37,129 nucleotides of DNA, from positions 1-37,129 of IMG/VR virus record IMGVR_UViG_2872174743_000010; one strand, written 5' to 3'. Below are positions 2,443-34,509 of the stretch, one piece after another (positions within the stretch are counted from its first letter, which is position 1; every line of letters starts with the position of its first letter). Both the position numbers and the translations under genes were made by a program. Origin of the DNA: a virus. Lineage: Duplodnaviria; Heunggongvirae; Uroviricota; Caudoviricetes. Below the pieces are notes generated by a model that was not told the DNA's origin, ran no database searches, and saw only the letters and a list, made by a program, of their open reading frames with translations.

Positions 2443-2655
2443 ATGTTGAATGTAGCTATTGAAAACCAGAACGGGTGGAATTATAATGCACCTGCACCTC
2501 ATAAAACGGGCGCCGGGATTAGCACCCCGAAAGTTACTCGAGCGCATAACCGCGCTGAAGCGGTTTTTTTTATGCGTAATGCACAGCCACATTCAAATTA
2601 TGGTGAGGCGTGCGGGGCAGCCGCAAGGCTGGCCGGGTTCTCGAGTGACCGGTAG
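2443..2655 (+). CDS. Hypothetical small protein (70 aa)
   Basis: ATG preceded by AGGAAAGAGAAA; no recognisable motif; overlaps the 5' extension of the Rha ORF. Confidence 0.25.
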   Translation: MLNVAIENQNGWNYNAPAPHKTGAGISTPKVTRAHNRAEAVFFMRNAQPHSNYGEACGAAARLAGFSSDR

Positions 2656-2737
2656 TGCTAACCCTGTGCGTCTCACCACCCATGAGATTAGCACCTCTGC
2701 TGGTGAGTTAATTAACTTATCACTTGAGGATGTCATT

Positions 2738-3406: not shown

Positions 3407-3680
3407 ATGAGCAGAAAAAACCAACGTTACTCTAAAGAGTTCAAAGCCGAAGCTGTCAGAACGGTTCTTGAAAATCAACTTTCGATCAGTGAAGGCGCTT
3501 CCCGATTATCCCTTCCTGAAGGCACTTTAGGACAATGGGTTACCGCCGCCAGAAAAGGGCTCGGTACTCCTGGTTCCCGCACGGTGGCTGAACTGGAATC
3601 TGAAATTCTGCAACTGCGTAAGGCGTTAAATGAAGCTCGCCTTGAGCGATATATATTAAAAAAAGCAACAGCGTATTTTG
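3407..3680 (+). pseudogene. IS600 OrfA, truncated at the IS66-family insertion point
   Basis: MSRKNQRYSKEFKAEAVRTVLENQLSISEGASRLSLPEGTLGQWV...ILKKATAYF; contains the A-rich slippery run TTAAAAAAAG; reading continues into the IS66 inverted repeat (GTAAGCG at 3681). Confidence 0.8.
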
Positions 3681-3766
3681 GTAAGCGTAAACTGACCGCC
3701 GTATGTAGCCATTAAGCCTGTATTGGTAACGTAGGTGCCCACCTTTTCAACTAGTGGACACCTGTT

Positions 3767-4186
3767 ATGGAACAGAAAGCATTATCTGCAGAACCCCGCA
3801 GATCATTTTCAAATGAGTTTAAACTTCAAATGGTTAAACTGGCTTCACAACCAGGAGCCTCTGTTGCCCGTATTGTCCGGGAACACGATATCAATGATAA
3901 CCTGCTGTTCAAATGGCTCAGGCTCTGGCAGAACGAAGGGCGCATATCGCGGCGTCTTCCGGTAACAACCTCTTCTGACACTGGCGTTGAATTATTACCT
4001 GTGGAGATAACGCCGGATGAGCCGAAAGAACCGGTGGCTGCTCTTACTCCGTCTTTATCTACTCAGACTACAGTTAGTGCCAGCTCCTGCAAGGTGGAGT
4101 TCCGTCACGGTAACATGACGCTGGAAAATCCTTCACCAGAGCTGCTCACAGTGTTGATCCGTGAACTGACCGGGTGGGGACGATAA
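3767..4186 (+). CDS. tnpA: IS66-family accessory protein TnpA
   Basis: 139 aa with ...FSNEFKLQMVKLASQPGASVARIVREHDINDNLLFKWLR..., the IS66 orf1 pattern; stop overlaps the next gene. Confidence 0.85.
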   Translation: MEQKALSAEPRRSFSNEFKLQMVKLASQPGASVARIVREHDINDNLLFKWLRLWQNEGRISRRLPVTTSSDTGVELLPVEITPDEPKEPVAALTPSLSTQTTVSASSCKVEFRHGNMTLENPSPELLTVLIRELTGWGR

Positions 4187-4533
4187 TCTCACTCCCGTCA
4201 GGCACCCGCATCTGGCTCGTTGCTGGGATAACCGATATGCGTAAGTCTTTCAACGGGCTGGGTGAACAGGTACAGCATGTGCTGAATGATAATCCCTTCT
4301 CCGGTCACCTGTTCATCTTCCGTGGCCGACGGGGTGACATGATTAAAATCCTGTGGGCTGATGCTGATGGTCTGTGCCTGTTCACCAGACGCCTGGAGGA
4401 AGGCCAGTTTATCTGGCCTGCTGTGCGTGACGGCAAGGTATCCATTACCCGCTCGCAACTGGCAATGCTCCTCGATAAGCTGGACTGGCGTCAGCCAAAA
4501 ACATCCCGCCTTAACGCACTGACAATGTTGTAA
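4174..4533 (+). CDS. tnpB: IS66-family TnpB (orf2)
   Basis: GTG start overlapping the tnpA end; ...GTRIWLVAGITDMRKSFNGLGEQV...GHLFIFRGRRGDMIKILWADADGLCLFTRRLEEGQFIWP. Confidence 0.85.
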   Translation: MGTIISLPSGTRIWLVAGITDMRKSFNGLGEQVQHVLNDNPFSGHLFIFRGRRGDMIKILWADADGLCLFTRRLEEGQFIWPAVRDGKVSITRSQLAMLLDKLDWRQPKTSRLNALTML

Positions 4534-4563
4534 AAATGTCATGGCCGGATTATAAAAACGGCC

Positions 4564-6156
4564 ATGAATCAAAAATACCTCATTCGCATTGCAGAACTGG
4601 AATGCCAGCTCCGTCAGAAAGACCAGCAACTGAGTCTGGTTGAAGAGACGGAGGCCTTCCTGCGCTCTGCACTGGCCCGCGCCGAAGAAAAGATCGAAGA
4701 AGATGAACGGGAAATAGAACATCTGCGGGCTCAGATAGAAAAACTGCGCCGGATGCTGTTCGGTACCCGTTCTGAAAAACTGCGTCGTGAAGTTGAACAG
4801 GCTGAGGCCCTGCTGAAACAACGCGAACAGGACAGTGATCGTTACAGTGGGCGGGAAGACGATCCGCAGGTTCCCCGCCAGTTGCGACAGTCTCGTCATC
4901 GTCGCCCGTTACCGGAGCATCTGCCCCGCGAAATAAATCGCCTGGAGCCAGAAGAAAGCTGTTGCCCGGAGTGTGGCGGTGAGCTGGATTATCTGGGGGA
5001 AGTCAGCGCAGAACAACTGGAACTGGTGAGCAGCGCTCTGAAAGTGATCCGCACAGAACGGGTAAAAAAAGCCTGTACAAAATGTGACTGCATCGTTGAA
5101 GCACCGGCACCATCCCGTCCGATAGAGCGTGGTATCGCGGGCCCGGGGTTACTTGCCCGCGTGTTAACGGGAAAATACTGCGAACACCTGCCACTGTATC
5201 GTCAGAGTGAAATTTTTGCCCGTCAGGGTGTCGAACTGAGCCGTGCATTACTCTCCAACTGGGTTGACGCGTGCTGCCAGTTAATGACGCCGCTGAATGA
5301 TGCTCTGTACCGTTATGTGATGAACAGCCGCAAAGTTCACACTGATGACACACCAGTAAAAGTGCTGGCACCGGGCAGGAAGAAGGCGAAAACAGGATAT
5401 ATCTGGACGTATGTCCGGGATGACAGGAATGCCGGTTCGCCAGAGCCTCCGGCGGTCTGGTTCGCCTACTCACCGGACCATCAGGGTAAACATCCGGAGC
5501 AGCACCTTAGTCCCTTCCGGGGTATCCTGCAGGCAGATGCGTTTAATGGTTACGATCGGCTGTTCAGTGCCGAACGAGAAGGCGGCGCGTTGACGGAAGC
5601 AGGATGCTGGGCTCATGCGCGGCGCAAAGTCCACGATGTATATATCAGTACCAAAAGCGCGACAGCGGAAGAAGCCCTGAAACTAATCGGTGAGCTGTAC
5701 GCCATCGAGCACGAAATACGCGGGTTGCCGGTGTCTGAACGCCTGGCGGTCAGGCAAATGCAGAGTAAACCGCTACTGACTTCCCTGTATAAGCTGATGC
5801 AGGAGAAAGAACAGACGTTATCGAAAAAATGCCGTCTGAGAGATGCGTTCCGGTATATCAGGAAGCACTGGGTTGCGTTGTGCAACTTCAGTGATGATGG
5901 TCTGGCTGAGGCGGATAATAATGCCGCGGAAAGAGCGCTTCGTGCAGTCTGTCTCGGAAAGAAAAACTTTATGTTCTTCGGCAGCGATCACGGTGGAGAG
6001 CGTGGTGCGCTACTGTACGGGCTGATCGGCACCTGCCGACTGAACGGTATCGATCCGGAAGCGTATCTGCGCTATATCCTGAGCGTACTGCCGGAATGGC
6101 CTTCCAACCGTGTTGACGAACTCCTGCCATGGAACGTAGCACTCACCAATAAATAA
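4564..6156 (+). CDS. tnpC: IS66-family transposase TnpC
   Basis: 530 aa; coiled-coil N-terminus, CCPECGG zinc motif, DDTPVKVL, WAHARRK, ADNNAAERALR and [15 protein letters not shown] motifs, all characteristic of IS66 transposases. Confidence 0.9.
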   Translation: MNQKYLIRIAELECQLRQKDQQLSLVEETEAFLRSALARAEEKIEEDEREIEHLRAQIEKLRRMLFGTRSEKLRREVEQAEALLKQREQDSDRYSGREDDPQVPRQLRQSRHRRPLPEHLPREINRLEPEESCCPECGGELDYLGEVSAEQLELVSSALKVIRTERVKKACTKCDCIVEAPAPSRPIERGIAGPGLLARVLTGKYCEHLPLYRQSEIFARQGVELSRALLSNWVDACCQLMTPLNDALYRYVMNSRKVHTDDTPVKVLAPGRKKAKTGYIWTYVRDDRNAGSPEPPAVWFAYSPDHQGKHPEQHLSPFRGILQADAFNGYDRLFSAEREGGALTEAGCWAHARRKVHDVYISTKSATAEEALKLIGELYAIEHEIRGLPVSERLAVRQMQSKPLLTSLYKLMQEKEQTLSKKCRLRDAFRYIRKHWVALCNFSDDGLAEADNNAAERALRAVCLGKKNFMFFGSDHGGERGALLYGLIGTCRLNGIDPEAYLRYILSVLPEWPSNRVDELLPWNVALTNK

Positions 6157-6249
6157 GCGTCAATACGGTGCTCCGTTGACGCCTGATATGACTTTCCGTG
6201 TCAAACCGGAATCTCTAATTTTGACGATTTTCTTTTTAGGTTTAATTCC

Positions 6250-6435
6250 CTGAGGGCGACGTAGCAGTAAATCCGACGGTGAATCACGCTGATATTCGCG
6301 GGTTGGATACCGCATTACAGAGGTCCGTCATATGAGCCTGCCACTTTCTTACGTCGCGAATCAGCTTTGTTCCGCCGTCGCCAAGCGCTAACGTGGGTTA
6401 CTCTTGTACCGGGCTACGTCGCCTTCAGGGAACTG
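6250..6435 (-). ncRNA. Candidate structured non-coding RNA (bridge-RNA-like) in the IS110-family non-coding end
   Basis: Non-coding stretch just downstream of the transposase stop with nested complementarity: CCCTGAGGGCGACGTAGC (about 6248-6265) pairs 17 of 18 with GCTACGTCGCCTTCAGGG (about 6413-6430); GCTGATATTCGCG (about 6288-6300) pairs with CGCGAATCAGC (about 6355-6365); repeated TACGTCGC motifs. Strand and ends are inferred, not shown. Confidence 0.3.
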
Positions 6436-6449
6436 GTTATTCTCATTTT

Positions 6450-7577
6450 TTATTTGTGACATTGTGGTTGTTGTGCGACAGACATTGCTATTCGGCCCAT
6501 ATCCCAGATAAAACCCGCCAGCTCACGTGCAACAGCAACAATTGTAATATTGACATTCTTTCCTTTGGCCTGAAGTTTTCGATACCTCTTACAGAGCCTG
6601 AGTTGAGCATCCCATGCTCTGTCAATGACGGGGCGGGGTAAATTTTCCTGCCTTTTTTGTATTGCCGGACTGATGCGTGCCGGATGACGGTAACTCCACG
6701 CTGCCTCGACCAATAGCTTTCTGGCATAGCTGTTTCCGGCTTTGGTAATGCTGCCCTGATGTCTGCTTCCACCCGATGAATATTCTGATGGCGTGATACC
6801 AAACCATGACATCAGTTGTCGTGGATGTTCAAAACGGGTCAGATCACCCAGTTCAGAAATTAATCCAACCGCAGTAATAAACTGAATCCCTCGCATGGCT
6901 TGCAGCGCCTCTACTACCGGATACAGCCTCCATTCGGTAACGGCCTCCTTCAGGGCGGATTCCAGCCGTTCACATTGTGCCTGCCGGTCTTCTATTGTAC
7001 GACGGTGTTCGTCAAAAGCTAATTGTCGCCAGGGACTTTCGAATGAGTATTTGCTGAGCCAGCGTCGGTGTGCAGGGCCCCAATCTGCTCGCCCGACATA
7101 ATGGACCCCATGAACCAGAAGAAACGATTTCAGACGTTGCCTTGCATGCCGTAAATCATCGCGGGCAGATGCCCATGCCCGGGCCAAATCCCGGAATGCC
7201 TCATCTTCAATGCCGGGTACGTAGACAGCAGAAAGATCTCCTGCACGCAGTGAACGCACAAGTCTGATGGCATCACGGCGATCGGTTTTAACCCGCTCCC
7301 CCGGTTTTTTCGGGATAAGTGAGGGGGCGCAGACCATGCAGTCAAAACCGGATTTCACCAGCCGACGATAAAGTCCATAACCACAGGGCCCCGCTTCATA
7401 AACGATACTGACCTGCGATGACTTTGACCTGAGACGTTTACAAAGATTCTGAATATCAGTAGGTGATGTGCCAATTTTACCCATCAGTTCAACAGGTTCT
7501 GAATTGATAGCATAAGCGACAGTAATCGATTCTTTGTGAACATCTAACCCGACGTACAATGTGTTATTGTTGTTCAT
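6450..7577 (-). CDS. IS110-family transposase/recombinase (DEDD type)
   Basis: Start at the Met of MNNNNTLYVGLDVHKESITVAYA (GGAGG-like RBS upstream); N-terminal RuvC-like DEDD region and C-terminal ...GSITKAGNSYARKLLVEAAW... serine-bearing domain typical of IS110/IS1111 transposases. Confidence 0.85.
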   Translation of the reverse strand: MNNNNTLYVGLDVHKESITVAYAINSEPVELMGKIGTSPTDIQNLCKRLRSKSSQVSIVYEAGPCGYGLYRRLVKSGFDCMVCAPSLIPKKPGERVKTDRRDAIRLVRSLRAGDLSAVYVPGIEDEAFRDLARAWASARDDLRHARQRLKSFLLVHGVHYVGRADWGPAHRRWLSKYSFESPWRQLAFDEHRRTIEDRQAQCERLESALKEAVTEWRLYPVVEALQAMRGIQFITAVGLISELGDLTRFEHPRQLMSWFGITPSEYSSGGSRHQGSITKAGNSYARKLLVEAAWSYRHPARISPAIQKRQENLPRPVIDRAWDAQLRLCKRYRKLQAKGKNVNITIVAVARELAGFIWDMGRIAMSVAQQPQCHK

Positions 7578-7779
7578 GCTGGCCTCCGTGGTGGAAATAC
7601 CGGGGGGTAGCAACAGCTCACCCATGCGGCTCTGACAACGATGTTAACCCGCGTTAAATATCCCACGTTGGCCAGCATCTGTCTCACGGAAAGTCATACT
7701 GCCTTACGTATTTTGCACAGGAGTCGCTGATAAATACGCGTTAATCGAACAATGGCGACAACAATTTCCCATTGAAGCG

Positions 7780-8598
7780 ATGTGTCAGGTATTTGGTGTA
7801 TCCAGGAGCGGTTATTACAACTGGGTACAGCATGAACCCTCAGACAGAAAACAAAGTGATGAGCGGCTAAAACTGGAGATTAAGGTGGCACATATCCGCA
7901 CTCGCGAAACATATGGAACCCGGCGGCTCCAGACGGAGCTGGCAGAGAATGGCATCATCGTTGGTCGTGACCGACTGGCACGTCTTCGTAAGGAGCTAAG
8001 GCTACGCTGTAAGCAGAAACGCAAGTTCAGAGCGACTACGAACCCGAACCACAATCTGCCAGTTGCGCCAAATCTGCTGAACCAGACGTTCGCTCCTACA
8101 GCACCAAATCAGGTCTGGGTGGCGGACCTGACGTATGTTGCCACACAGGAGGGATGGTTGTACCTCGCTGGCATCAAAGATGTTTATACGTGCGAAATTG
8201 TCGGCTACGCCATGGGAGAGCGCATGACAAAAGAGCTGACAGGTAAAGCCCTGTTTATGGCGCTCAGGAGCCAGCGCCCACCTGCCGGGTTAATCCACCA
8301 CTCTGATCGAGGTTCACAGTACTGCGCATACGATTACCGGGTCATACAGGAGCAGTCTGGTCTGAAAACATCAATGTCGCGTAAAGGTAACTGTTACGAC
8401 AACGCTCCGATGGAAAGCTTCTGGGGAACGCTGAAAAATGAGAGCCTGAGCCACTATCGTTTTAATAACCGGGATGAAGCCATCTCAGTAATACGGGAAT
8501 ACATTGAGATTTTCTACAATCGTCAGCGTCGTCACTCTCGTCTGGGGAATATCTCCCCGGCAGCCTTCAGGGAAAAATATCATCAGATGGCTGCTTAA
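7780..8598 (+). CDS. IS600 OrfB (DDE catalytic part)
   Basis: MCQVFGVSRSGYYNWV...VWVADLTYV...HHSDRGSQYCA...NCYDNAPMESFWGTLKNE..., the IS3-family integrase core; the orfB frame is open upstream from about 7648, as expected for an OrfAB fusion. Confidence 0.85.
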   Translation: MCQVFGVSRSGYYNWVQHEPSDRKQSDERLKLEIKVAHIRTRETYGTRRLQTELAENGIIVGRDRLARLRKELRLRCKQKRKFRATTNPNHNLPVAPNLLNQTFAPTAPNQVWVADLTYVATQEGWLYLAGIKDVYTCEIVGYAMGERMTKELTGKALFMALRSQRPPAGLIHHSDRGSQYCAYDYRVIQEQSGLKTSMSRKGNCYDNAPMESFWGTLKNESLSHYRFNNRDEAISVIREYIEIFYNRQRRHSRLGNISPAAFREKYHQMAA

Positions 8599-8977: not shown

Positions 8978-9253
8978 GTGGCTTCCATTTCCATCAGATG
9001 TCCTTCCTGCTCCGCTACTGAAGGCGTGGTGCGTAACGGCAAAAGCACTGCCGGACATCAGCGCTATCTCTGCTCTCATTGCCGTAAAACATGGCAACTA
9101 CAGTTCACTTACACCGCCTCTCAGCCCGGTACGCACCAGAAAATCATTGATATGGCCATGAATGGCGTCGGATGTCGCGCCAGTGCACGCATTATGGGCG
9201 TTGACCTCAACACGGTTTTCCGTCACTTAAAAAACTCAGGCCGCAGTCGGTAA
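8978..9253 (+). CDS. insA: IS1 InsA
   Basis: [43 protein letters not shown]... Confidence 0.9.
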
Positions 9254-9279
9254 CCTCGCGCATACAACCGGGCAGTGAT

Positions 9280-9571
9280 GTGATTGTCTGCGCTGAAATG
9301 GACGAACAGTGGGGCTACGTCGGTGCTAAATCACGTCAGCGCTGGCTGTTTTACGCGTATGACAGGATACGGAGGACGGTTGTGGCGCACGTCTTCGGTG
9401 AACGCACTCTGGCCACACTGGAGCGTCTTCTGAGCCTGCTGTCGGCCTTTGAGGTCGTGGTATGGATGACGGATGGCTGGCCGCTGTATGAATCACGCCT
9501 GAAGGGAAAGCTGCACGTTATCAGCAAGCGTTACACTCAGCGCATTGAGCGACATAATCTGAATCTGAGAC
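9280..9571 (+). pseudogene. insB: IS1 InsB, 3'-truncated by the IS66-family insertion
   Basis: InsB frame reads ...[14 protein letters not shown] and then continues into IS66 DNA (RKRTA, stop), whereas the intact copy at 25340-25843 continues [13 protein letters not shown]... Confidence 0.75.
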
Positions 9572-9642
9572 GTAAGCGTACAGCCTGAACCGTCTGGTCA
9601 GAATCTGACGAATTAGACAAAGTGGTGTCCACCAAATAAGTA

Positions 9643-10044
9643 GTGGGAACCAAAGTGTCAGATATGCAGAAAAATGTGAATCCCGGCAGGCGAAAAGGCT
9701 GCCCTAATTATCCTCCCGAATTTAAACAGCAGCTCGTTGCTGCCTCCTGTGAACCCGGGATATCCATCTCAAAACTTGCTCTTGAAAATGGCATTAACGC
9801 CAATCTGTTGTTCAAATGGCGACAACAATGGCGCGAGGGAAAGCTGCTATTACCTTCTTCAGAGAGCCCCCAGCTACTTCCTGTGACTCTCGATGCAGCT
9901 GCCGAACAGCCAGAATCGCTCGCAGAGGATCCGGAAACCCTCAGTATCAGCTGTGAGGTAACGTTCCGGCACGGGACGCTCCGCTTCAATGGCAATGTCA
10001 GCGAAAAGCTCCTGACTCTGCTGATACAGGAACTGAAGCGATGA
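9643..10044 (+). CDS. tnpA: IS66-family TnpA (copy 2)
   Basis: ...PEFKQQLVAASCEPGISISKLALENGINANLLFKWRQQWREG...; start uncertain (GTG at 9643 or ATG at 9664). Confidence 0.8.
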   Translation: MGTKVSDMQKNVNPGRRKGCPNYPPEFKQQLVAASCEPGISISKLALENGINANLLFKWRQQWREGKLLLPSSESPQLLPVTLDAAAEQPESLAEDPETLSISCEVTFRHGTLRFNGNVSEKLLTLLIQELKR

Positions 10045-10388
10045 TCCCGTTACCTTCCGGGACCAAAATTTGGCTGGTTGCCGGTATCACCGATATGAGA
10101 AATGGCTTCAACGGCCTGGCGGCAAAGGTGCAGACGACGCTGAAAGACGATCCGATGTCAGGTCACGTTTTTATCTTCCGTGGGCGTAATGGCAGTCAGG
10201 TAAAGCTCCTCTGGTCTACCGGCGATGGACTGTGTCTGCTGACCAAACGGCTGGAGCGCGGCCGCTTCGCCTGGCCGTCAGCCCGGGATGGCAAAGTGTT
10301 CCTCACACCGGCACAGCTGGCGATGCTCCTTGAAGGTATCGACTGGCGGCAGCCTAAAAGACTGCTTACGTCCCTGACTATGTTGTAA
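10041..10388 (+). CDS. tnpB: IS66-family TnpB (copy 2)
   Basis: MIPLPSGTKIWLVAGITDMRNGFNGLAAKV...; ATG overlaps the tnpA stop (ATGA). Confidence 0.85.
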   Translation: MIPLPSGTKIWLVAGITDMRNGFNGLAAKVQTTLKDDPMSGHVFIFRGRNGSQVKLLWSTGDGLCLLTKRLERGRFAWPSARDGKVFLTPAQLAMLLEGIDWRQPKRLLTSLTML

Positions 10389-10436
10389 GCCTCTTTATCC
10401 TGGTCGACGCTGAATGAGCCTGGTAATATACCCGGT

Positions 10437-11975
10437 ATGAGCAGCTCACTTCCTGACGATATCAATGCACTGAAACGTCTCCTTGCCGAACAGGAGGCGC
10501 TGAACCGTGCCCTGCTGGAAAAGCTGAACGAGCGTGAACGCGAAATAGACCATCTGCAGGCACAGCTGGATAAGCTGCGCCGGATGAACTTCGGCAGCCG
10601 CTCCGAAAAAGTCTCCCGTCGTATCGCACAGATGGAAGCTGACCTGAAGGCACTTCAGAAAGAAAGTGATACCCTTACCGGTCGGGTTGACGACCCGGCC
10701 GTGCAGCGCCCGCTGCGTCAAACCCGCACCCGCAAACCGTTCCCCGAATCACTCCCCCGCGATGAAAAACGGCTGCTGCCGGCAGCGTCATGCTGCCCGG
10801 AATGTGGAGGCTCACTGAGCTATCCGGGTGAGGATGCCGCCGAACAGCTGGAGTTGATGCGCAGCGTCTTCCGGGTTATCCGGACTGTACGTGAAAAGCA
10901 TGCCTGTACTCAGTGCGATGCCATCGTGCAGGCCCCCGCGCCTTCACGGCCCATCGAGCGGGGTATCGCAGGACCGGGGCTGCTGGCCCGCGTGCTGATC
11001 TCAAAGTATGCAGAGCACACCCCGCTGTACCGTCAGTCTGAAATGTACGGCCGCCAGGGCGTGGAGCTGAGTCGTTCACTGCTGTCGGGCTGGGTGGATG
11101 CATGCTGCCGGCTACTGTCACCGCTGGAAGAAGCGCTTCAGGATTATGTGCTGACTGACGGTAAGCTCCATGCTGATGACACGCCTGTCCCGGTGCTGTT
11201 GCCAGGCAATAAGAAAACGAAGACCGGGCGGTTATGGACCTACGTTCGTGACGACCGTAACGCCGGGTCAACGCTGGCGCCGGCGGTGTGGTTCGCTTAC
11301 AGCCCGGACAGAAAAGGCATCCATCCGCAGACCCATCTTGCGGGGTTCAGTGGTGTACTGCAGGCGGATGCATACGCCGGGTTCAACGAGCTGTACCGGG
11401 ATGGCCGGATAACGGAAGCCGCCTGTTGGGCTCACGCCCGCCGTAAAATCCACGATGTGCACGTTCGCACCCCGTCAGCCCTGACGGAGGAAGCGCTGAA
11501 ACGGATCGGCGAACTGTACGCCATCGAGGCAGAGATAAGGGGAATGACGGCGGAGCAGCGCCTTGCCGAACGTCAGTTGAAAACGAAACCGCTGCTGAAA
11601 TCCCTGGAAAGCTGGCTGCGTGAAAAGATGAAAACCCTGTCGCGACACTCAGAACTGGCGAAAGCGTTCGCATACGCCCTGAACCAGTGGCCGGCGCTGA
11701 CGTACTATGCAGATGATGGCTGGGCTGAGGCGGACAATAACATCGCTGAAAATGCGTTGCGGATGGTCAGTCTGGGCCGCAAAAACTACCTGTTCTTCGG
11801 TTCGGATCATGGAGGAGAGCGGGGAGCGCTGCTGTACAGCCTGATCGGGACGTGCAAACTGAACGGAGTGGAGCCAGAAAGCTACCTCCGCTATGTACTT
11901 GACGTCATAGCCGACTGGCCGATAAACCGGGTCGGCGAACTGCTCCCCTGGCGCGTAGCACTGCCGACTGAATAA
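10437..11975 (+). CDS. tnpC: IS66-family transposase TnpC (copy 2)
   Basis: 512 aa with the same motif set as copy 1 ([48 protein letters not shown]), but clearly diverged from it. Confidence 0.9.
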
Positions 11976-12012
11976 CACATCCCCGTCAATACGGTTCTTG
12001 CTGCACGCTTAC

Positions 12013-16410: not shown

Positions 16411-17445
16411 TTAAGTAGCTAGTTTATAACTATCAAATTTAACAATGTTATCACTTACCAATTTATTTATTTCCATCATTCTTTTTTGTAACGGTATTAA
16501 CTCGTTACGTACAAACACCAGGCTCGCCTTCTCCACATCCCCAAACCCCCCGACATTATTAGGCATAATCCCCATCATTTGCGGTGGCACACGATGCGCC
16601 GCCATCATGTCATCCCGGCTCACGTTCTTGATGTTCAGAAACTCATCCTTCGCCGCGACTTCTGACAACGGGATGATCTGAAGCCCGTCCTTTTTGCCGT
16701 TAGGCGAGTACATAAACAGATTGCGGAAGTTACCTGGTCCTTTGGCGCTTTTCATCGCATTGCGGAGGTTGTTCACATCCTCCTGGTTTTGCGCGGCATC
16801 GGTCATGTACATGATGAAGCCTGCATGACTGCCGTTAATGTAATACTATCGGCGGAACAGCGTGGCGGACTCGTTGAGCAGGGCTGACGGAATGGCAGAA
16901 AGGTAACCTGGCAGGCCGTAGATCTCTTGGTTGATGTCCGGTTCCATCAGATGAAAGATGCTTCCTTTCGTGAACTGATACGGCTGCGTGGTCATGCCGT
17001 ATTGCACAAACCAGTAGGTATCCAGGTCTAATCCGCGTCGGGTGTATTTTGCCAGAGCAGGCTCAAGAGCGATGACCTCTCCGAACCGGTTTGTGCGTTT
17101 CTCCAGGTAAGCGTTACCAAATACCAGATAATCCTGCACAAAACGTGAAAAAGCCTGCTGGCTGAGCAGCGGGTGAGGGATGTAGGTACTGATCAGAATG
17201 TTGCATTTCACCGCAATTGGTGAACTGTGATGCACGGCGGCGCGGAAGGTGCGCGCCAGTCCGTCAAAACTCACTGGCGGCTCATACCAGCGATCTGTCT
17301 GTACGCATTCCACATAGTCCAGTAGTTCACGGCGGTCCAGAACCGGAACGGGATCGCCGAAGCTGAATGCTTCGGCTGAAGTCTGGTTTTTATGCTGGGT
17401 CTGTTTCGTCGCCGCAGCGCGGTTCTTCTTACTCTTTCCCATCAA
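16411..17445 (-). pseudogene. Q: Portal protein (P2 gpQ-like) interrupted by an in-frame TAG
   Basis: Track ORFs 16846..17445 and 16411..16812 are in the same frame; protein reads ...ATLFRR-stop-YYINGSHAGFIMYMTDAAQ...; the TAG is at 16846-16848 on the minus strand. Confidence 0.8.
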
Positions 17446-20200: not shown

Positions 20201-21259
20201 ATGAAGAAGAATACCCGCTTTGCTTTTAACGCTTACCTGCAGCAACTGGCGCGTCTGAACGGTGTGGCAGTTGAAGAACTGTCCAGCAAGTTCACCGTAG
20301 AGCCGTCCGTGCAGCAGACGCTGGAAGACCAGATCCAGCAGTCCGCCGCTTTCCTGACTCTGATTAACGTCACGCCAGTGACTGAGCAGTCCGGTCAGCT
20401 GCTGGGGTTGGGAGTTGGCAGCACCATTGCCGGAACCACTGATACCACTGCGAAAGAGCGTGAACCTGTCGATCCGACGCTGATGGTCGATGTGGAATAT
20501 AAATGCGAGCAGACCAACTTTGACACGGTGCTGACCTACGCGAAGCTGGACCTGTGGGCGAAGTTTCAGGATTTTCAGGTGCGTATCCGTGACGCCATCG
20601 TGAAACGTCAGGCACTGGACCGCATCATGATCGGCTTTAATGGCGTGAAGCGTGCGAAAACCTCCAACCGTAGCGAAAACCCGCTGCTGCAGGATGTGAA
20701 TAAAGGCTGGCTGCAGAAAATCCGTGAGGATGCACCGGATCACGTCATGGGCAGCACCACCACGGGCGGTGAAACCACACCGGGCGCAGTGAAAGTCGGG
20801 AAAGGTGGCGAATATGCCAACCTGGACGCCGTGGTGATGGATGCCGTCAATGAGCTTATCGACGTGGTCTACCAGGACGATGACGATCTGGTGGTGATTT
20901 GCGGTCGTGAACTGCTGTCTGACAAGTATTTCCCGCTGGTCAACAAAGAGCAGGAAAACAGTGAAAAACTGGCTGCCGATATGATCATCAGTCAGAAACG
21001 CATGGGTGGCCTGCAGGCCGTGCGTGCGCCGTTCTTCCCGCCGAATGCGCTGCTGATCACCCGTCTGGATAACCTGTCCATCTACTGGCAGGAAGACACC
21101 CGCCGCCGTTCAGTTATCGACAACCCGAAACGTGACCGGATTGAAAACTTTGAATCCGTTAACGAAGCCTATGTGGTTGAGGACTACCGCTGCGCCGCAC
21201 TGGTGGAAAACATCCAGATTAGTGATTTCAGCGCCGCCGCAGCCGAAACCGGAGCGTAA
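20201..21259 (+). CDS. N: Major capsid protein, P2 gpN-like
   Basis: 352 aa; ...TRFAFNAYLQQLARLNGV...KFTVEPSVQQTL...IMIGFNGVKRAKTS...VKVGKGGEYANLDAVVMDA..., highly similar to P2 N as remembered. Confidence 0.9.
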   Translation: MKKNTRFAFNAYLQQLARLNGVAVEELSSKFTVEPSVQQTLEDQIQQSAAFLTLINVTPVTEQSGQLLGLGVGSTIAGTTDTTAKEREPVDPTLMVDVEYKCEQTNFDTVLTYAKLDLWAKFQDFQVRIRDAIVKRQALDRIMIGFNGVKRAKTSNRSENPLLQDVNKGWLQKIREDAPDHVMGSTTTGGETTPGAVKVGKGGEYANLDAVVMDAVNELIDVVYQDDDDLVVICGRELLSDKYFPLVNKEQENSEKLAADMIISQKRMGGLQAVRAPFFPPNALLITRLDNLSIYWQEDTRRRSVIDNPKRDRIENFESVNEAYVVEDYRCAALVENIQISDFSAAAAETGA

Positions 21260-34350: not shown

Positions 34351-34397
34351 CAACAAAAAACCCATCAACCTTGAACCGAAATGGCGGGGTTGATGGG
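34351..34397 (-). terminator. Intrinsic terminator candidate on the minus strand (downstream of ybjL)
   Basis: CCCATCAACC ... GGTTGATGGG stem with a 17-nt loop; on the minus strand it is followed by TTTTTTGTTG. Confidence 0.45.
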
Positions 34398-34509
34398 CTC
34401 CACAAAATGGGGACATCAAAGAAAAGCAGTGGCACTAATTAAGACTGATGCCCTGCGGAAAAGTTCTGCGGTTGTGCAAAAAAATTTCATTTTCAGGGCA
34501 ACTTCAGTT

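What the first reader, a model, noticed from the sequence alone, without database searches (positions are those of the whole stretch)
6201..6449. Structured non-coding end of an IS110-family element: candidate bridge-type guide RNA
IS110-family recombinases use an element-encoded structured RNA (bridge RNA) to specify target and donor. Here about 250 bp of non-coding DNA lies between the transposase stop (6450) and the element boundary. It contains nested inverted repeats (a 17 of 18 long-range stem at about 6248-6265 / 6413-6430, and an inner stem at about 6288-6300 / 6355-6365) and repeated TACGTCGC motifs, more structure than a plain terminator needs. The element is itself inserted in the terminal region of an IS66-family element, so the RNA loops would be expected to match that target.
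Basis: partly seen in the sequence, partly recalled or inferred. Interest (0 to 1): 0.7.

Follow-up and report, generated by a model that had tools for sequence, protein, structure and literature searches.

The report
Guide RNA gene of insertion sequence ISSso6
The structured non-coding tail of this mobile element (ISSso6) encodes the guide ("bridge" or "seek") RNA that tells its recombinase where to insert, here the tip of another mobile element; this class of RNA is already described, and a 2024 paper already predicted one for this element.

Summary
The element is ISSso6: 6185-7702 on the minus strand, with tnp at 6450-7577. It sits 3 bp plus a 2-bp core from the tip of the right inverted repeat of an IS66-family element (3681-7707).

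The 265-nt stretch downstream of tnp holds a ~190-nt RNA (6245-6437, minus strand). A covariance model built from 24 relatives finds the same RNA downstream of tnp, on the same strand, in 75 of 80 homologous loci, down to ~50% protein identity. Of its 47 base pairs, 36 show compensatory changes.

One internal loop carries two hypervariable segments:
- 6382-6392 is complementary to the top strand of the core plus right target.
- 6345-6355 is identical to the top strand of the left target plus core.

Across relatives each RNA matches its own flanks: 4.0 of 5 versus 1.46 in permutations, and 3.0 of 4 versus 1.48 (0 of 20,000 permutations each). ISSso6 is programmed for GTA-AG-CGCTA. The IS66 tip, GTA-AG-CGTCA, is a near-cognate site.

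A second loop carries AUAUCAG, which equals the element's right end plus core.

Durrant et al. 2024 (Supplementary Table 5) already list ISSso6 with a bridge RNA detected in its right end. Expression and function were not testable here.

The parts
6185..7702 (-). ISSso6, an IS110-family element of the IS1111 type, without the duplicated core
   Evidence: Named by RefSeq annotation of near-identical copies. Ends fixed by comparing empty and occupied sites, L005 versus L002, and by uninterrupted IS66 ends in L006 and L008.
6183..6184 (.). Core dinucleotide copy at the right-end junction (CT on the plus strand, AG in tnp orientation)
   Evidence: The empty site GCG-CT-TAC becomes GCG-CT|GATATG...ACTGC|CT-TAC when occupied. 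The window carries one extra C just outside it, at 6182/6183.
7703..7704 (.). Core dinucleotide copy at the left-end junction
   Evidence: It is followed by TAC (7705-7707), the last 3 bp of the IS66 right inverted repeat.
6450..7577 (-). tnp, the DEDD recombinase (375 aa), intact
   Evidence: ORF. Pfam PF01548 and PF02371. NCBIfam NF033542 'IS110 family RNA-guided transposase', 274 bits. Distant match to the IS621 and ISCro4 structures in the Tnp domain.
6245..6437 (-). Core of the guide RNA (bridge/seekRNA)
   Evidence: Covariance model R1 scores 204 bits (E = 1.5e-56) on the minus strand and 31.8 bits on the plus strand. Homologous hits lie downstream of tnp in 75 of 80 loci. 36 of 47 pairs show compensatory change.
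6413..6433 (-). P1 closing stem, 5' strand
6245..6265 (-). P1 closing stem, 3' strand
6382..6392 (-). Right-target guide (RNA 5'-GUUAGCGCUUG-3'). [quoted passage not shown] It is the 5' strand of the target-binding internal loop.
   Evidence: Hypervariable in the family alignment. Perfect complement of the hokC-nhaA site. Own-flank match 4.0 of 5 versus 1.46 permuted, 0 of 20,000.
6356..6381 (-). P5/P6 hairpin capping the target-binding loop
   Evidence: 7 of 8 pairs with compensatory change (helix 6).
6345..6355 (-). Left-target guide (RNA 5'-GACGUAAGAAA-3'). ACGUAAG equals the top strand of the left target plus core, so it pairs with the bottom strand. It is the 3' strand of the target-binding loop.
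   Evidence: Left flanks are ...ACGTA-AG in the window and GTA-AG at all E. coli sites. Own-flank match 3.0 of 4 versus 1.48 permuted, 0 of 20,000.
6393..6396 (-). P4, 5' strand (pairs with 6341-6344); closes the target-binding loop
   Evidence: Compensatory CCGC/GCGG, CCAC/GUGG and CCUC/GAGG.
6289..6296 (-). Right-end (left-donor) guide candidate, AAUAUCAG. AUAUCAG equals right-end bases ATATC plus the core AG.
   Evidence: ATATCAG is invariant in the 24 close relatives. In clades whose right end is CATGAG-AG the RNA reads CAUCAGAG or GAUGAGAG.
6298..6313 (-). P7 hairpin, between the two strands of the putative donor-binding loop
   Evidence: Helix 7: 99.6% of cells paired, 1 pair with compensatory change.
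6314..6322 (-). 5' strand of the putative donor-binding loop (CUCUGUAAU); weak left-end guide
   Evidence: In the L065 clade the aligned bases UCUGUCU are the exact reverse complement of core plus left end, AG-ACAGA. In ISSso6 only CUGU faces GCAG.
6328..6333 (-). 3' strand of a third hypervariable internal loop, between P2 and P3. Its partner strand is 6404-6409.
   Evidence: Variable. No match to flanks. Weak resemblance to the left subterminal repeat, 2 of 500 permutations. Role unknown.
6187..6200 (.). Right subterminal inverted repeat (RNA sense CACGGAAAGTCATA)
   Evidence: The interior of the repeat changes together in the left and right ends across relatives.
7685..7698 (.). Left subterminal inverted repeat (TATGACTTTCCGTG in tnp orientation)
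6199..6204 (-). TTGACA, a candidate -35 box of a promoter formed only when the ends are joined in a circle
   Evidence: In the joined ends it lies 17 nt upstream of CAGTAT (7696-7701). TTGAC precedes the right repeat in most relatives listed; one distant clade has TTGAA. No sigma-70-like promoter lies inside the non-coding end. Function is inferred.
3681..7707 (+). Host IS66-family element whose right inverted-repeat tip is the ISSso6 target
   Evidence: tnpC at 4564-6156 with Pfam IS66 domains. 8-bp duplication GTATTTTG. Uninterrupted right ends read ...CCGTTGACGCTTAC.

Best explanation
Region 6185-6449, read on the minus strand, is the 3' non-coding end of ISSso6. It encodes the element's guide RNA, called bridge RNA by Durrant et al. 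and seekRNA by Siddiquee et al. The RNA is about 190 nt (6245-6437).

Proposed mechanism (inferred unless marked otherwise):
- The RNA is most likely made as the tail of the tnp transcript. That transcript would be driven by a promoter formed when the two ends are joined in the excised circle (TTGACA in the right end, 17 nt, CAGTAT in the left end). The RNA is then bound by the DEDD recombinase.
- A long closing stem (P1) holds a multi-loop scaffold.
- One internal loop is the target-binding loop. [quoted passage not shown] The two guides overlap at the core.
- Together they specify about 10 bp, 5'-GTA-AG-CGCTA-3'. This is shown by the sequence and by co-variation across relatives.
- The tip of IS66-family inverted repeats (GTAAGCGTCA or GTAAGCGTTA) is a near-cognate site. 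This explains why the element sits 3 bp plus the core from the IS66 end.
- A second loop, flanking hairpin P7, carries AUAUCAG. This equals the element's right end plus core, and it probably holds the donor.
- Recombination at the shared core inserts the circle with no duplication other than the core.
For: Element identity and boundaries.

Recombinase family.

Conserved RNA:
- Model R1 finds it downstream of tnp on the same strand in 75 of 80 loci whose recombinases are 48-81% identical.
- 96.8% of cells are paired, versus 79.3% in shuffles and 35-45% when the partners are slid.
- 36 of 47 pairs have compensatory changes. In an independent MAFFT/RNAalifold analysis of 24 close relatives, 14 of 47 do.

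Strand: 246 G.U cells versus 40 A.C cells, giving 96.8% paired on the sense strand and 89.8% on the antisense strand. The model scores 204 bits on the minus strand and 32 bits on the plus strand.

Guides:
- The two loop strands are the most variable parts of the alignment.
- Each element's own flanks fit its own guides. Right-target bases 1-5 match at 0.87, 0.84, 0.82, 0.84 and 0.63; bases 6-7 are at chance. Left-target bases 1-3 match at 1.0, 0.93 and 0.71.
- No permutation out of 20,000 reached the observed score on either side.
- ISSso6 sites in E. coli: hokC-nhaA GTA-AG-CGCTA (perfect); IS66 tips, an IS3 remnant and a transketolase gene GTA-AG-CGT(C/T)A.

Donor: AUAUCAG equals the right end plus core, and it changes together with the right end in distant clades.

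Literature:
- In IS1111-type elements the essential RNA lies downstream of tnp, and the top-strand match lies 5' of the bottom-strand match (PMC11187229). That is the order seen here.
- Durrant et al. list 'ISSso6 | RE | IS1111' under 'Detected Bridge RNA End' (PMC11208160, Supplementary Table 5).
Against: - There is no transcript, processing or protein-binding evidence for this RNA; none can be obtained with these tools.
- Rfam 15 has no matching family, and the published bridge-RNA models could not be run.
- A guide for the left end is not clear in ISSso6. The aligned segment pairs with only 3 Watson-Crick pairs plus one wobble, and its core-facing bases (AA) cannot pair with AG.
- The IS66 site in the window is not a perfect match: one wobble and one mismatch. 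An extra C at 6182/6183 also puts the right flank out of register with the guide.
- One pair of E. coli copies (L090, L092) sits at a site that fits only the left guide.
- The pair counts come from an alignment fitted to the model.
Confidence: 0.9

Rival explanations
1. The structure is an ordinary 3' untranslated feature of the tnp mRNA, such as a terminator or stabilising stem-loops, or a set of DNA-level repeats bound by the recombinase. It has no guide function.
For: No internal promoter was found, so the region is probably the tail of the tnp transcript. Long stems stabilise 3' ends. The subterminal repeats nearby are DNA sites.
Against: A terminator does not need about 190 nt with seven covarying helices conserved down to ~50% protein identity. 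It also cannot explain why the two loop strands are hypervariable and match each element's own left and right flanks. No run of U follows P1 on the minus strand, and no terminator-like site on the minus strand was found in 6185-6449. The excess of G.U over A.C points to RNA pairing, not DNA.
Confidence: 0.04
2. The functional RNA is read from the plus strand, for example an antisense regulator of the tnp 3' end or of the IS66 tnpC transcript reading into ISSso6.
For: The plus strand also folds well (z = -4.1), because the stems are near-palindromic. Transcription from the IS66 tnpC gene (4564-6156) could read into 6185-6449.
Against: G.U pairs outnumber A.C by 246 to 40, so the helices are better on the tnp-sense strand: 96.8% versus 89.8% paired. 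The order of the guides (top-strand match first) and their sense fit the IS1111-type RNAs shown experimentally to be read in the tnp direction (PMC11187229). The IS66 context is absent from most copies.
Confidence: 0.03
3. The RNA gene is real, but this particular copy is immobilised. The extra base at the right junction and the imperfect IS66 target would prevent the guide from recognising the flanks, which IS1111-type elements need in order to excise. This reading is compatible with the main explanation; it concerns this copy only.
For: The window has GACGC-C-CT|GATATG where the empty site predicts GACG-CT|GATATG. With the extra base, right-target bases 1-5 fit the guide at 1 of 5 positions. 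[quoted passage not shown]
Against: tnp is intact. The whole non-coding end is identical to copies at four other sites (L002, L003, L004, L091). The tolerance of this family to flank mismatches is unknown.
Confidence: 0.3

Closest known systems
IS1111-type seekRNA (ISEc11, ISPa11, ISKpn4, ISPst6; Siddiquee et al. 2024, PMC11187229)
   Same: - The RNA is encoded in the long non-coding region downstream of a DEDD transposase.
- The element has subterminal inverted repeats, 14-15 bp here.
- There is no target duplication beyond the shared core.
[quoted passage not shown]
- Guides are naturally 'reprogrammed' between relatives.
- There is no internal promoter, and a promoter is formed at the circle junction.
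- The element targets a repeat of another mobile element, as IS4321/IS5075 target Tn21-family ends.
   Different: - The ISSso6 recombinase is longer (375 aa, against 330-350 for the compact IS1111 group). It is only about 20-25% identical to the transposases it is compared with in that paper's identity table.
- The RNA was not studied experimentally there; ISSso6 appears only in their protein set.
- The conserved RNA here is about 190 nt with extra loops, against the 82-96 nt minimal seekRNAs.
IS621 bridge RNA (Durrant et al. 2024, PMC11208160; Hiraizumi et al. 2024, PMC11208158)
   Same: - The RNA is bispecific: one internal loop carries a left and a right target guide that both include the core, and a second loop matches the element's own ends.
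- The recombinase has a RuvC-like DEDD domain and a Tnp domain with the G--P----SG motif.
- Recombination occurs at a 2-nt core, CT on the window's plus strand.
   Different: - The RNA is at the right end, not the left.
- The order of guides within the target loop is reversed.
- The right-target guide also covers left-target base 1.
- The repeats are long subterminal ones rather than 2-3 bp.
- The left-end guide is unclear.
- In several relatives only the first core base is shared by both junctions.
- Protein similarity to IS621 is detectable only in the Tnp domain (E = 2e-5).
Predicted IS1111-group bridge RNAs of ISfinder elements (Durrant et al. 2024, Fig. 6 and Supplementary Table 5; for example ISCARN28, ISAzs32, ISPa11)
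   Same: ISSso6 itself is listed: 'Detected Bridge RNA End: RE; group IS1111'. This is the same object as the finding.
   Different: The text held here gives only the end in which an RNA was detected. The guide assignments, the target (the IS66 repeat tip) and the structure worked out here are not in that text. The figures could not be read.

Membership tests
IS110-family (IS1111-type) bridge RNA / seekRNA | Encoded in a non-coding end of an element with a DEDD (RuvC-like plus Tnp domain) IS110-family recombinase | tested here: met
   Pfam PF01548 and PF02371. NCBIfam NF033542 at 274 bits against a 140 cut-off. Tnp-domain match to IS621, PDB 8WT6.
IS110-family (IS1111-type) bridge RNA / seekRNA | The long non-coding region and the RNA lie downstream of tnp (right end), on the tnp strand | tested here: met
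   265 nt downstream (6185-6449) against about 125 nt upstream (7578-7702). Model hits are downstream and on the same strand in 75 of 80 loci. G.U to A.C ratio is 246:40.
IS110-family (IS1111-type) bridge RNA / seekRNA | Conserved secondary structure supported by covariation | tested here: met
   36 of 47 pairs with compensatory change; 96.8% paired against 79.3% shuffled and 35-45% slid. 14 of 47 in the unfitted alignment.
IS110-family (IS1111-type) bridge RNA / seekRNA | An internal loop with two guides complementary to opposite strands of the target, overlapping at the core | tested here: met
   6382-6392 and 6345-6355 flank hairpin P5/P6. Perfect for GTA-AG-CGCTA at hokC-nhaA. One wobble plus one mismatch for the IS66 tip.
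IS110-family (IS1111-type) bridge RNA / seekRNA | Guides co-vary with the insertion sites of related elements (natural reprogramming) | tested here: met
   Permutation tests: right side 4.0 of 5 versus 1.46 +/- 0.17; left side 3.04 of 4 versus 1.48 +/- 0.17; 0 of 20,000 each.
IS110-family (IS1111-type) bridge RNA / seekRNA | Top-strand match 5' of bottom-strand match (IS1111 order, reversed relative to the IS110 type) | tested here: met
   The right-target guide precedes the left-target guide on the RNA in all 77 aligned hits. The rule is from PMC11187229.
IS110-family (IS1111-type) bridge RNA / seekRNA | A donor-binding loop complementary to both ends of the element around the core | tested here: inconclusive
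   The right-end guide AUAUCAG is met and co-varies with the right end. The left-end guide is perfect in the L065 clade but weak in ISSso6, where CUGU faces GCAG and there is no core pairing.
IS110-family (IS1111-type) bridge RNA / seekRNA | Subterminal inverted repeats of 7-17 bp (IS1111 group) | tested here: met
   14-15 bp, 6187-6200 and 7685-7698. They lie 5 nt (left) and 2 nt (right) from the core.
IS110-family (IS1111-type) bridge RNA / seekRNA | Insertion without target duplication other than the shared core | tested here: met
   Empty site L005 against occupied L002: only CT (AG) is present at both junctions.
IS110-family (IS1111-type) bridge RNA / seekRNA | The RNA is expressed, binds the recombinase and is required for circle formation and transposition | not testable with these tools
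   Needs RNA sequencing, co-purification and transposition assays. Only a candidate junction promoter can be read from the sequence.
IS110-family (IS1111-type) bridge RNA / seekRNA | Match to the published bridge-RNA covariance models | not testable with these tools
   The models are not available here, and Rfam 15 has no hit. The authors' own table reports a detection in the right end of ISSso6.

The most novel reading that the evidence does not exclude
The ISSso6 clade may use a variant of the bridge-RNA scheme. Three features set it apart from IS621.
- The left end is not read by a core-pairing guide.
- In several relatives only a single base is shared by the two junctions: the left junction always has AG, while the right junction follows the guide and has AA or AG.
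- A third hypervariable internal loop (6328-6333 / 6404-6409) matches neither target nor flanks.

Donor recognition could then rest mainly on the covarying subterminal repeats and on the guide reading the target-derived flanks, as in the seekRNA model. The third loop would have an unknown specificity role.
Probability: 0.2. Interest if true: 0.5.

Novelty: already known. Interest (0 to 1): 0.3.

Why it matters
It shows that raw sequence alone was enough to spot a genuine RNA-guided recombination module. It also gives a concrete, testable guide map for ISSso6: the target is GTA-AG-CGCTA, and the guides lie at 6382-6392 and 6345-6355.

That map explains why this element repeatedly lands in the tips of IS66-family repeats in E. 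coli and Shigella. The 75-locus family alignment offers natural examples of guide reprogramming that could help when engineering IS1111-type recombinases. For genome biology the result is confirmatory, not surprising.

Tried and rejected
- Rfam 15, at gathering and at permissive thresholds, gave nothing relevant in 6100-7800.
It is a 77% match and conflicts with covarying helices. RNAalifold helix 8 (UGAU/GUCG) shows no covariation and is not relied on.
- I first took CTTAC at 7703-7707 as part of the element, because all copies share it. The empty site showed it is target DNA.
- UCAUAUGAC (6326-6334), which resembles the right end, was considered as a donor guide. I dropped it because that patch varies while the right end does not.
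- UACUGC (6264-6269) is the reverse complement of left-end GCAGTA. It remains only an alternative, because it does not follow left-end changes in L049, L052 or L036.
- The third variable loop was tested against the flanks and both ends. It has no flank signal and only a weak link to the left end.
- L089, a 95.6% identical relative whose match to ISSso6 stops about 185 bp short of the right end, turned out to be a truncated relic, not a reprogrammed element.
- The two extra GTAAGCGTTA sites in the window lie inside ORFs. They are not IS66 ends.
- The upstream leader shows no significant structure.

Full report
**What is at the coordinates**

The minus strand of 6450-7577 encodes an intact 375-aa recombinase. 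It has the two Pfam domains of IS110-family transposases (PF01548 and PF02371). It scores 274 bits against NCBIfam NF033542, 'IS110 family RNA-guided transposase', whose cut-off is 140. Its only solved relatives are the IS621 and ISCro4 recombinases, matched in the Tnp domain only. Near-identical DNA in complete E. coli genomes is annotated 'IS110-like element ISSso6 family transposase'. Forty-one of 5,426 genomes hold a near-complete copy.

**Boundaries and context**

Five copies with different flanks were compared with an empty site between hokC and nhaA. The empty locus L005 reads ...CCCGTTAGCG-CT-TACAGCC.... The occupied locus L002 reads ...GTTAGCG-CT|GATATGAC...CATACTGC|CT-TACAGCC.... The element is therefore 6185-7702, with only the dinucleotide CT (AG in tnp orientation) present at both junctions.

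Uninterrupted IS66-family right ends read ...CCGTTGACG-CT-TAC (L006 and L008). ISSso6 thus sits 3 bp plus the core from the tip of the IS66 right inverted repeat. The host IS66 element (3681-7707) has its own 8-bp duplication, GTATTTTG, and itself splits an IS3-family element.

ISSso6 has 14-15 bp subterminal inverted repeats at 6187-6200 and 7685-7698. The non-coding stretch after the stop codon is 6185-6449, 265 nt.

**Checking the observation**

The long inverted repeat is real: 20 nt at 95% complementarity, 6246-6265 / 6413-6432. Both strands fold far better than shuffles (z = -4.6 and -4.1). The TACGTCGC repeats are real as well. The proposed inner stem is a weak 77% match and does not survive comparative analysis. 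The upstream leader is not notably structured.

**A conserved RNA**

Eighty loci encoding relatives of the recombinase (48-81% identity; Burkholderiaceae, Rhodanobacter, Rokubacteria, Desulfosarcina, rhizobia and others) were fetched. Their downstream regions align over about 190 nt. RNAalifold gives a long closing stem with nested helices.

A covariance model built from 24 sequences finds the RNA downstream of tnp on the same strand in 75 of the 80 loci. Scores range from 221 down to 53 bits. The window scores 204 bits at 6245-6437 on the minus strand and 32 bits on the plus strand.

On the 77-hit alignment (66 distinct rows), 96.8% of cells are paired. The figure is 79.3% when partners are shuffled and 35-45% when they are slid. 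Thirty-six of the 47 pairs show changes on both sides. That alignment is fitted to the model, but the unfitted 24-sequence alignment already shows 14 compensated pairs. G.U pairs outnumber A.C pairs by 246 to 40, which favours the tnp-sense strand.

**The target guides**

The internal loop between helices P4 and P5 has two strands that are the most variable parts of the family alignment.

In ISSso6 the 5' strand is GUUAGCGCUUG (6392-6382). Its reverse complement, AAGCGCTAA, is exactly the hokC-nhaA site from the base before the core onward. The 3' strand is GACGUAAGAAA (6355-6345). ACGTAAG is the left flank plus core in the window, and GTAAG is shared by all E. coli sites.

The two guides read opposite strands and overlap at the core and one adjacent base. 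The top-strand match comes first. That is the order Siddiquee et al. found for IS1111-type seekRNAs, and the reverse of the IS110 type (PMC11187229).

**Natural reprogramming as a test**

For each relative, the ends were located from the subterminal repeats, using one offset rule for every locus: the core lies 5 nt before ATG on the left and 3 nt after CAT on the right. I then asked whether each RNA fits its own flanks better than other elements' flanks.

With one site per distinct guide, right-target bases 1-5 match 4.0 of 5, against 1.46 +/- 0.17 in permutations. Left-target bases 1-4 match 3.04 of 4, against 1.48 +/- 0.17. No permutation out of 20,000 reached the observed value in either test.

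The per-position profile is sharp:
- Right side: 0.87, 0.84, 0.82, 0.84, 0.63, then chance.
- Left side: 1.0, 0.93, 0.71, then chance.

The family therefore reads about 10 bp: 3 bases, the 2-base core, then 5 bases. For ISSso6 this is GTA-AG-CGCTA.

The IS66 tips GTA-AG-CGTCA and GTA-AG-CGTTA are near-cognate, with a G.T wobble and, in the first case, one A.C mismatch. Other E. coli sites (an IS3 remnant, a transketolase gene) read CGTTA. One pair of copies (L090, L092) fits only on the left side.

**The donor side**

The segment 3' of hairpin P7 reads AAUAUCAG (6296-6289). ATATC plus AG is the right end plus core, and ATATCAG is invariant in the 24 close relatives. In clades whose right end is ...CATGAG-AG the RNA reads CAUCAGAG or GAUGAGAG at the aligned place. 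This behaves like the left-donor guide of a bridge RNA.

The opposite strand of that loop is the exact reverse complement of core plus left end in the L065 clade: UCUGUCU against AG-ACAGA. In ISSso6 only CUGU can face GCAG, and the core-facing bases cannot pair. An alternative, UACUGC near the 3' end, complements GCAGTA but does not follow left-end changes in relatives. I leave the left-end guide unresolved.

**Expression (inferred)**

No sigma-70-like promoter lies in the non-coding end on the minus strand. When the ends are joined, a perfect TTGACA in the right end lies 17 nt from CAGTAT in the left end. TTGAC precedes the right repeat in most relatives listed, although one distant clade has TTGAA. 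This fits the junction promoter described for ISEc11 and ISEc21, with the RNA derived from the tnp transcript (PMC11187229). None of this can be shown with these tools.

**Comparison with what is known**

Every testable defining feature of an IS1111-type bridge RNA or seekRNA is met, except a clear left-end guide. Durrant et al. 2024 list 'ISSso6 | Detected Bridge RNA End: RE | IS1111' in Supplementary Table 5. Siddiquee et al. included its transposase in their phylogeny only. RefSeq now names such proteins 'RNA-guided transposase'.

What is added here:
- the explicit structure;
- the guide coordinates;
- the 10-bp target rule;
- the identification of the IS66 repeat tip as a near-cognate target;
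- a family-wide statistical test.

**Residual oddities**

- The window copy has one extra C between the IS66 DNA and the core (6182/6183). This shifts the right flank out of register with the guide and might hinder excision.
- In several relatives the left junction has AG while the right junction and the guide have AA, so only one base is truly shared.
- A third hypervariable loop (6328-6333 / 6404-6409) matches nothing tested.

These leave room for a modest mechanistic variant but do not change the verdict.

Noticed in passing
window 3407-8598: Three nested insertion sequences. An IS3-family element (orfA 3407-3715, orfB 7780-8598) is split by an IS66-family element (3681-7707, 8-bp duplication GTATTTTG). 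That element in turn carries ISSso6 in the tip of its right inverted repeat.
   Followed up: yes
window 6182-6184: This copy has one extra C between the IS66 DNA and the core (GACGC-C-CT|GATATG; the empty site predicts GACG-CT). Locus L001 instead has a base change in the core. The extra base puts the right flank out of register with the RNA guide and may hinder excision.
   Followed up: partly
window 17107-17116 (+), 20227-20236 (-), 3681-3690 (+): Unoccupied near-cognate ISSso6 targets. Two GTAAGCGTTA sites lie inside ORFs and differ from the programmed site by one wobble only. The left tip of the IS66 element reads GTAAGCGTAA.
   Followed up: partly
loci L016, L018, L020, L023, L022, L026, L052, L075, L083, L084: The second core position behaves asymmetrically. 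The left junction and the left-target guide always have AG. The right junction follows the right-target guide and reads AA. Only the first A is shared by both junctions in these elements.
   Followed up: partly
window 6328-6333 and 6404-6409; the same loop in all relatives: A third internal loop, between helices P2 and P3, is hypervariable across relatives. It matches neither flank and shows only a weak resemblance to the left subterminal repeat (2 of 500 permutations).
   Followed up: partly
L074:2549-2741 and L074:2927-3119: A Desulfosarcina genome bin has two identical copies of the RNA 378 nt apart downstream of one transposase gene.
   Followed up: no
L090 and L092 (E. coli chromosomes): A 98.3% identical ISSso6 variant sits at GTA-AG-TGAAT. 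This fits the left guide but not the right one. It is either an off-target insertion or a later rearrangement.
   Followed up: partly
L089 (E. coli JNEC-KY202): A 95.6% identical relative is cut off inside the RNA, just after helix P5, by another insertion. RefSeq annotates its gene as 'IS110 family RNA-guided transposase' (frameshifted).
   Followed up: yes
window 2494-2683 and 34352-34430: Rfam hits unrelated to the finding: isrK (2494-2570, +), C4 antisense RNA (2596-2683, +) and RybB (34352-34430, -).
   Followed up: no
window about 8978-12012: IS1-like ORFs (8978-9588) are followed by a second, different IS66-family element (ORFs 9643-11975). Its right end, ...GCACGCTTAC, is a poorer match to the ISSso6 guide and is unoccupied.
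   Followed up: partly
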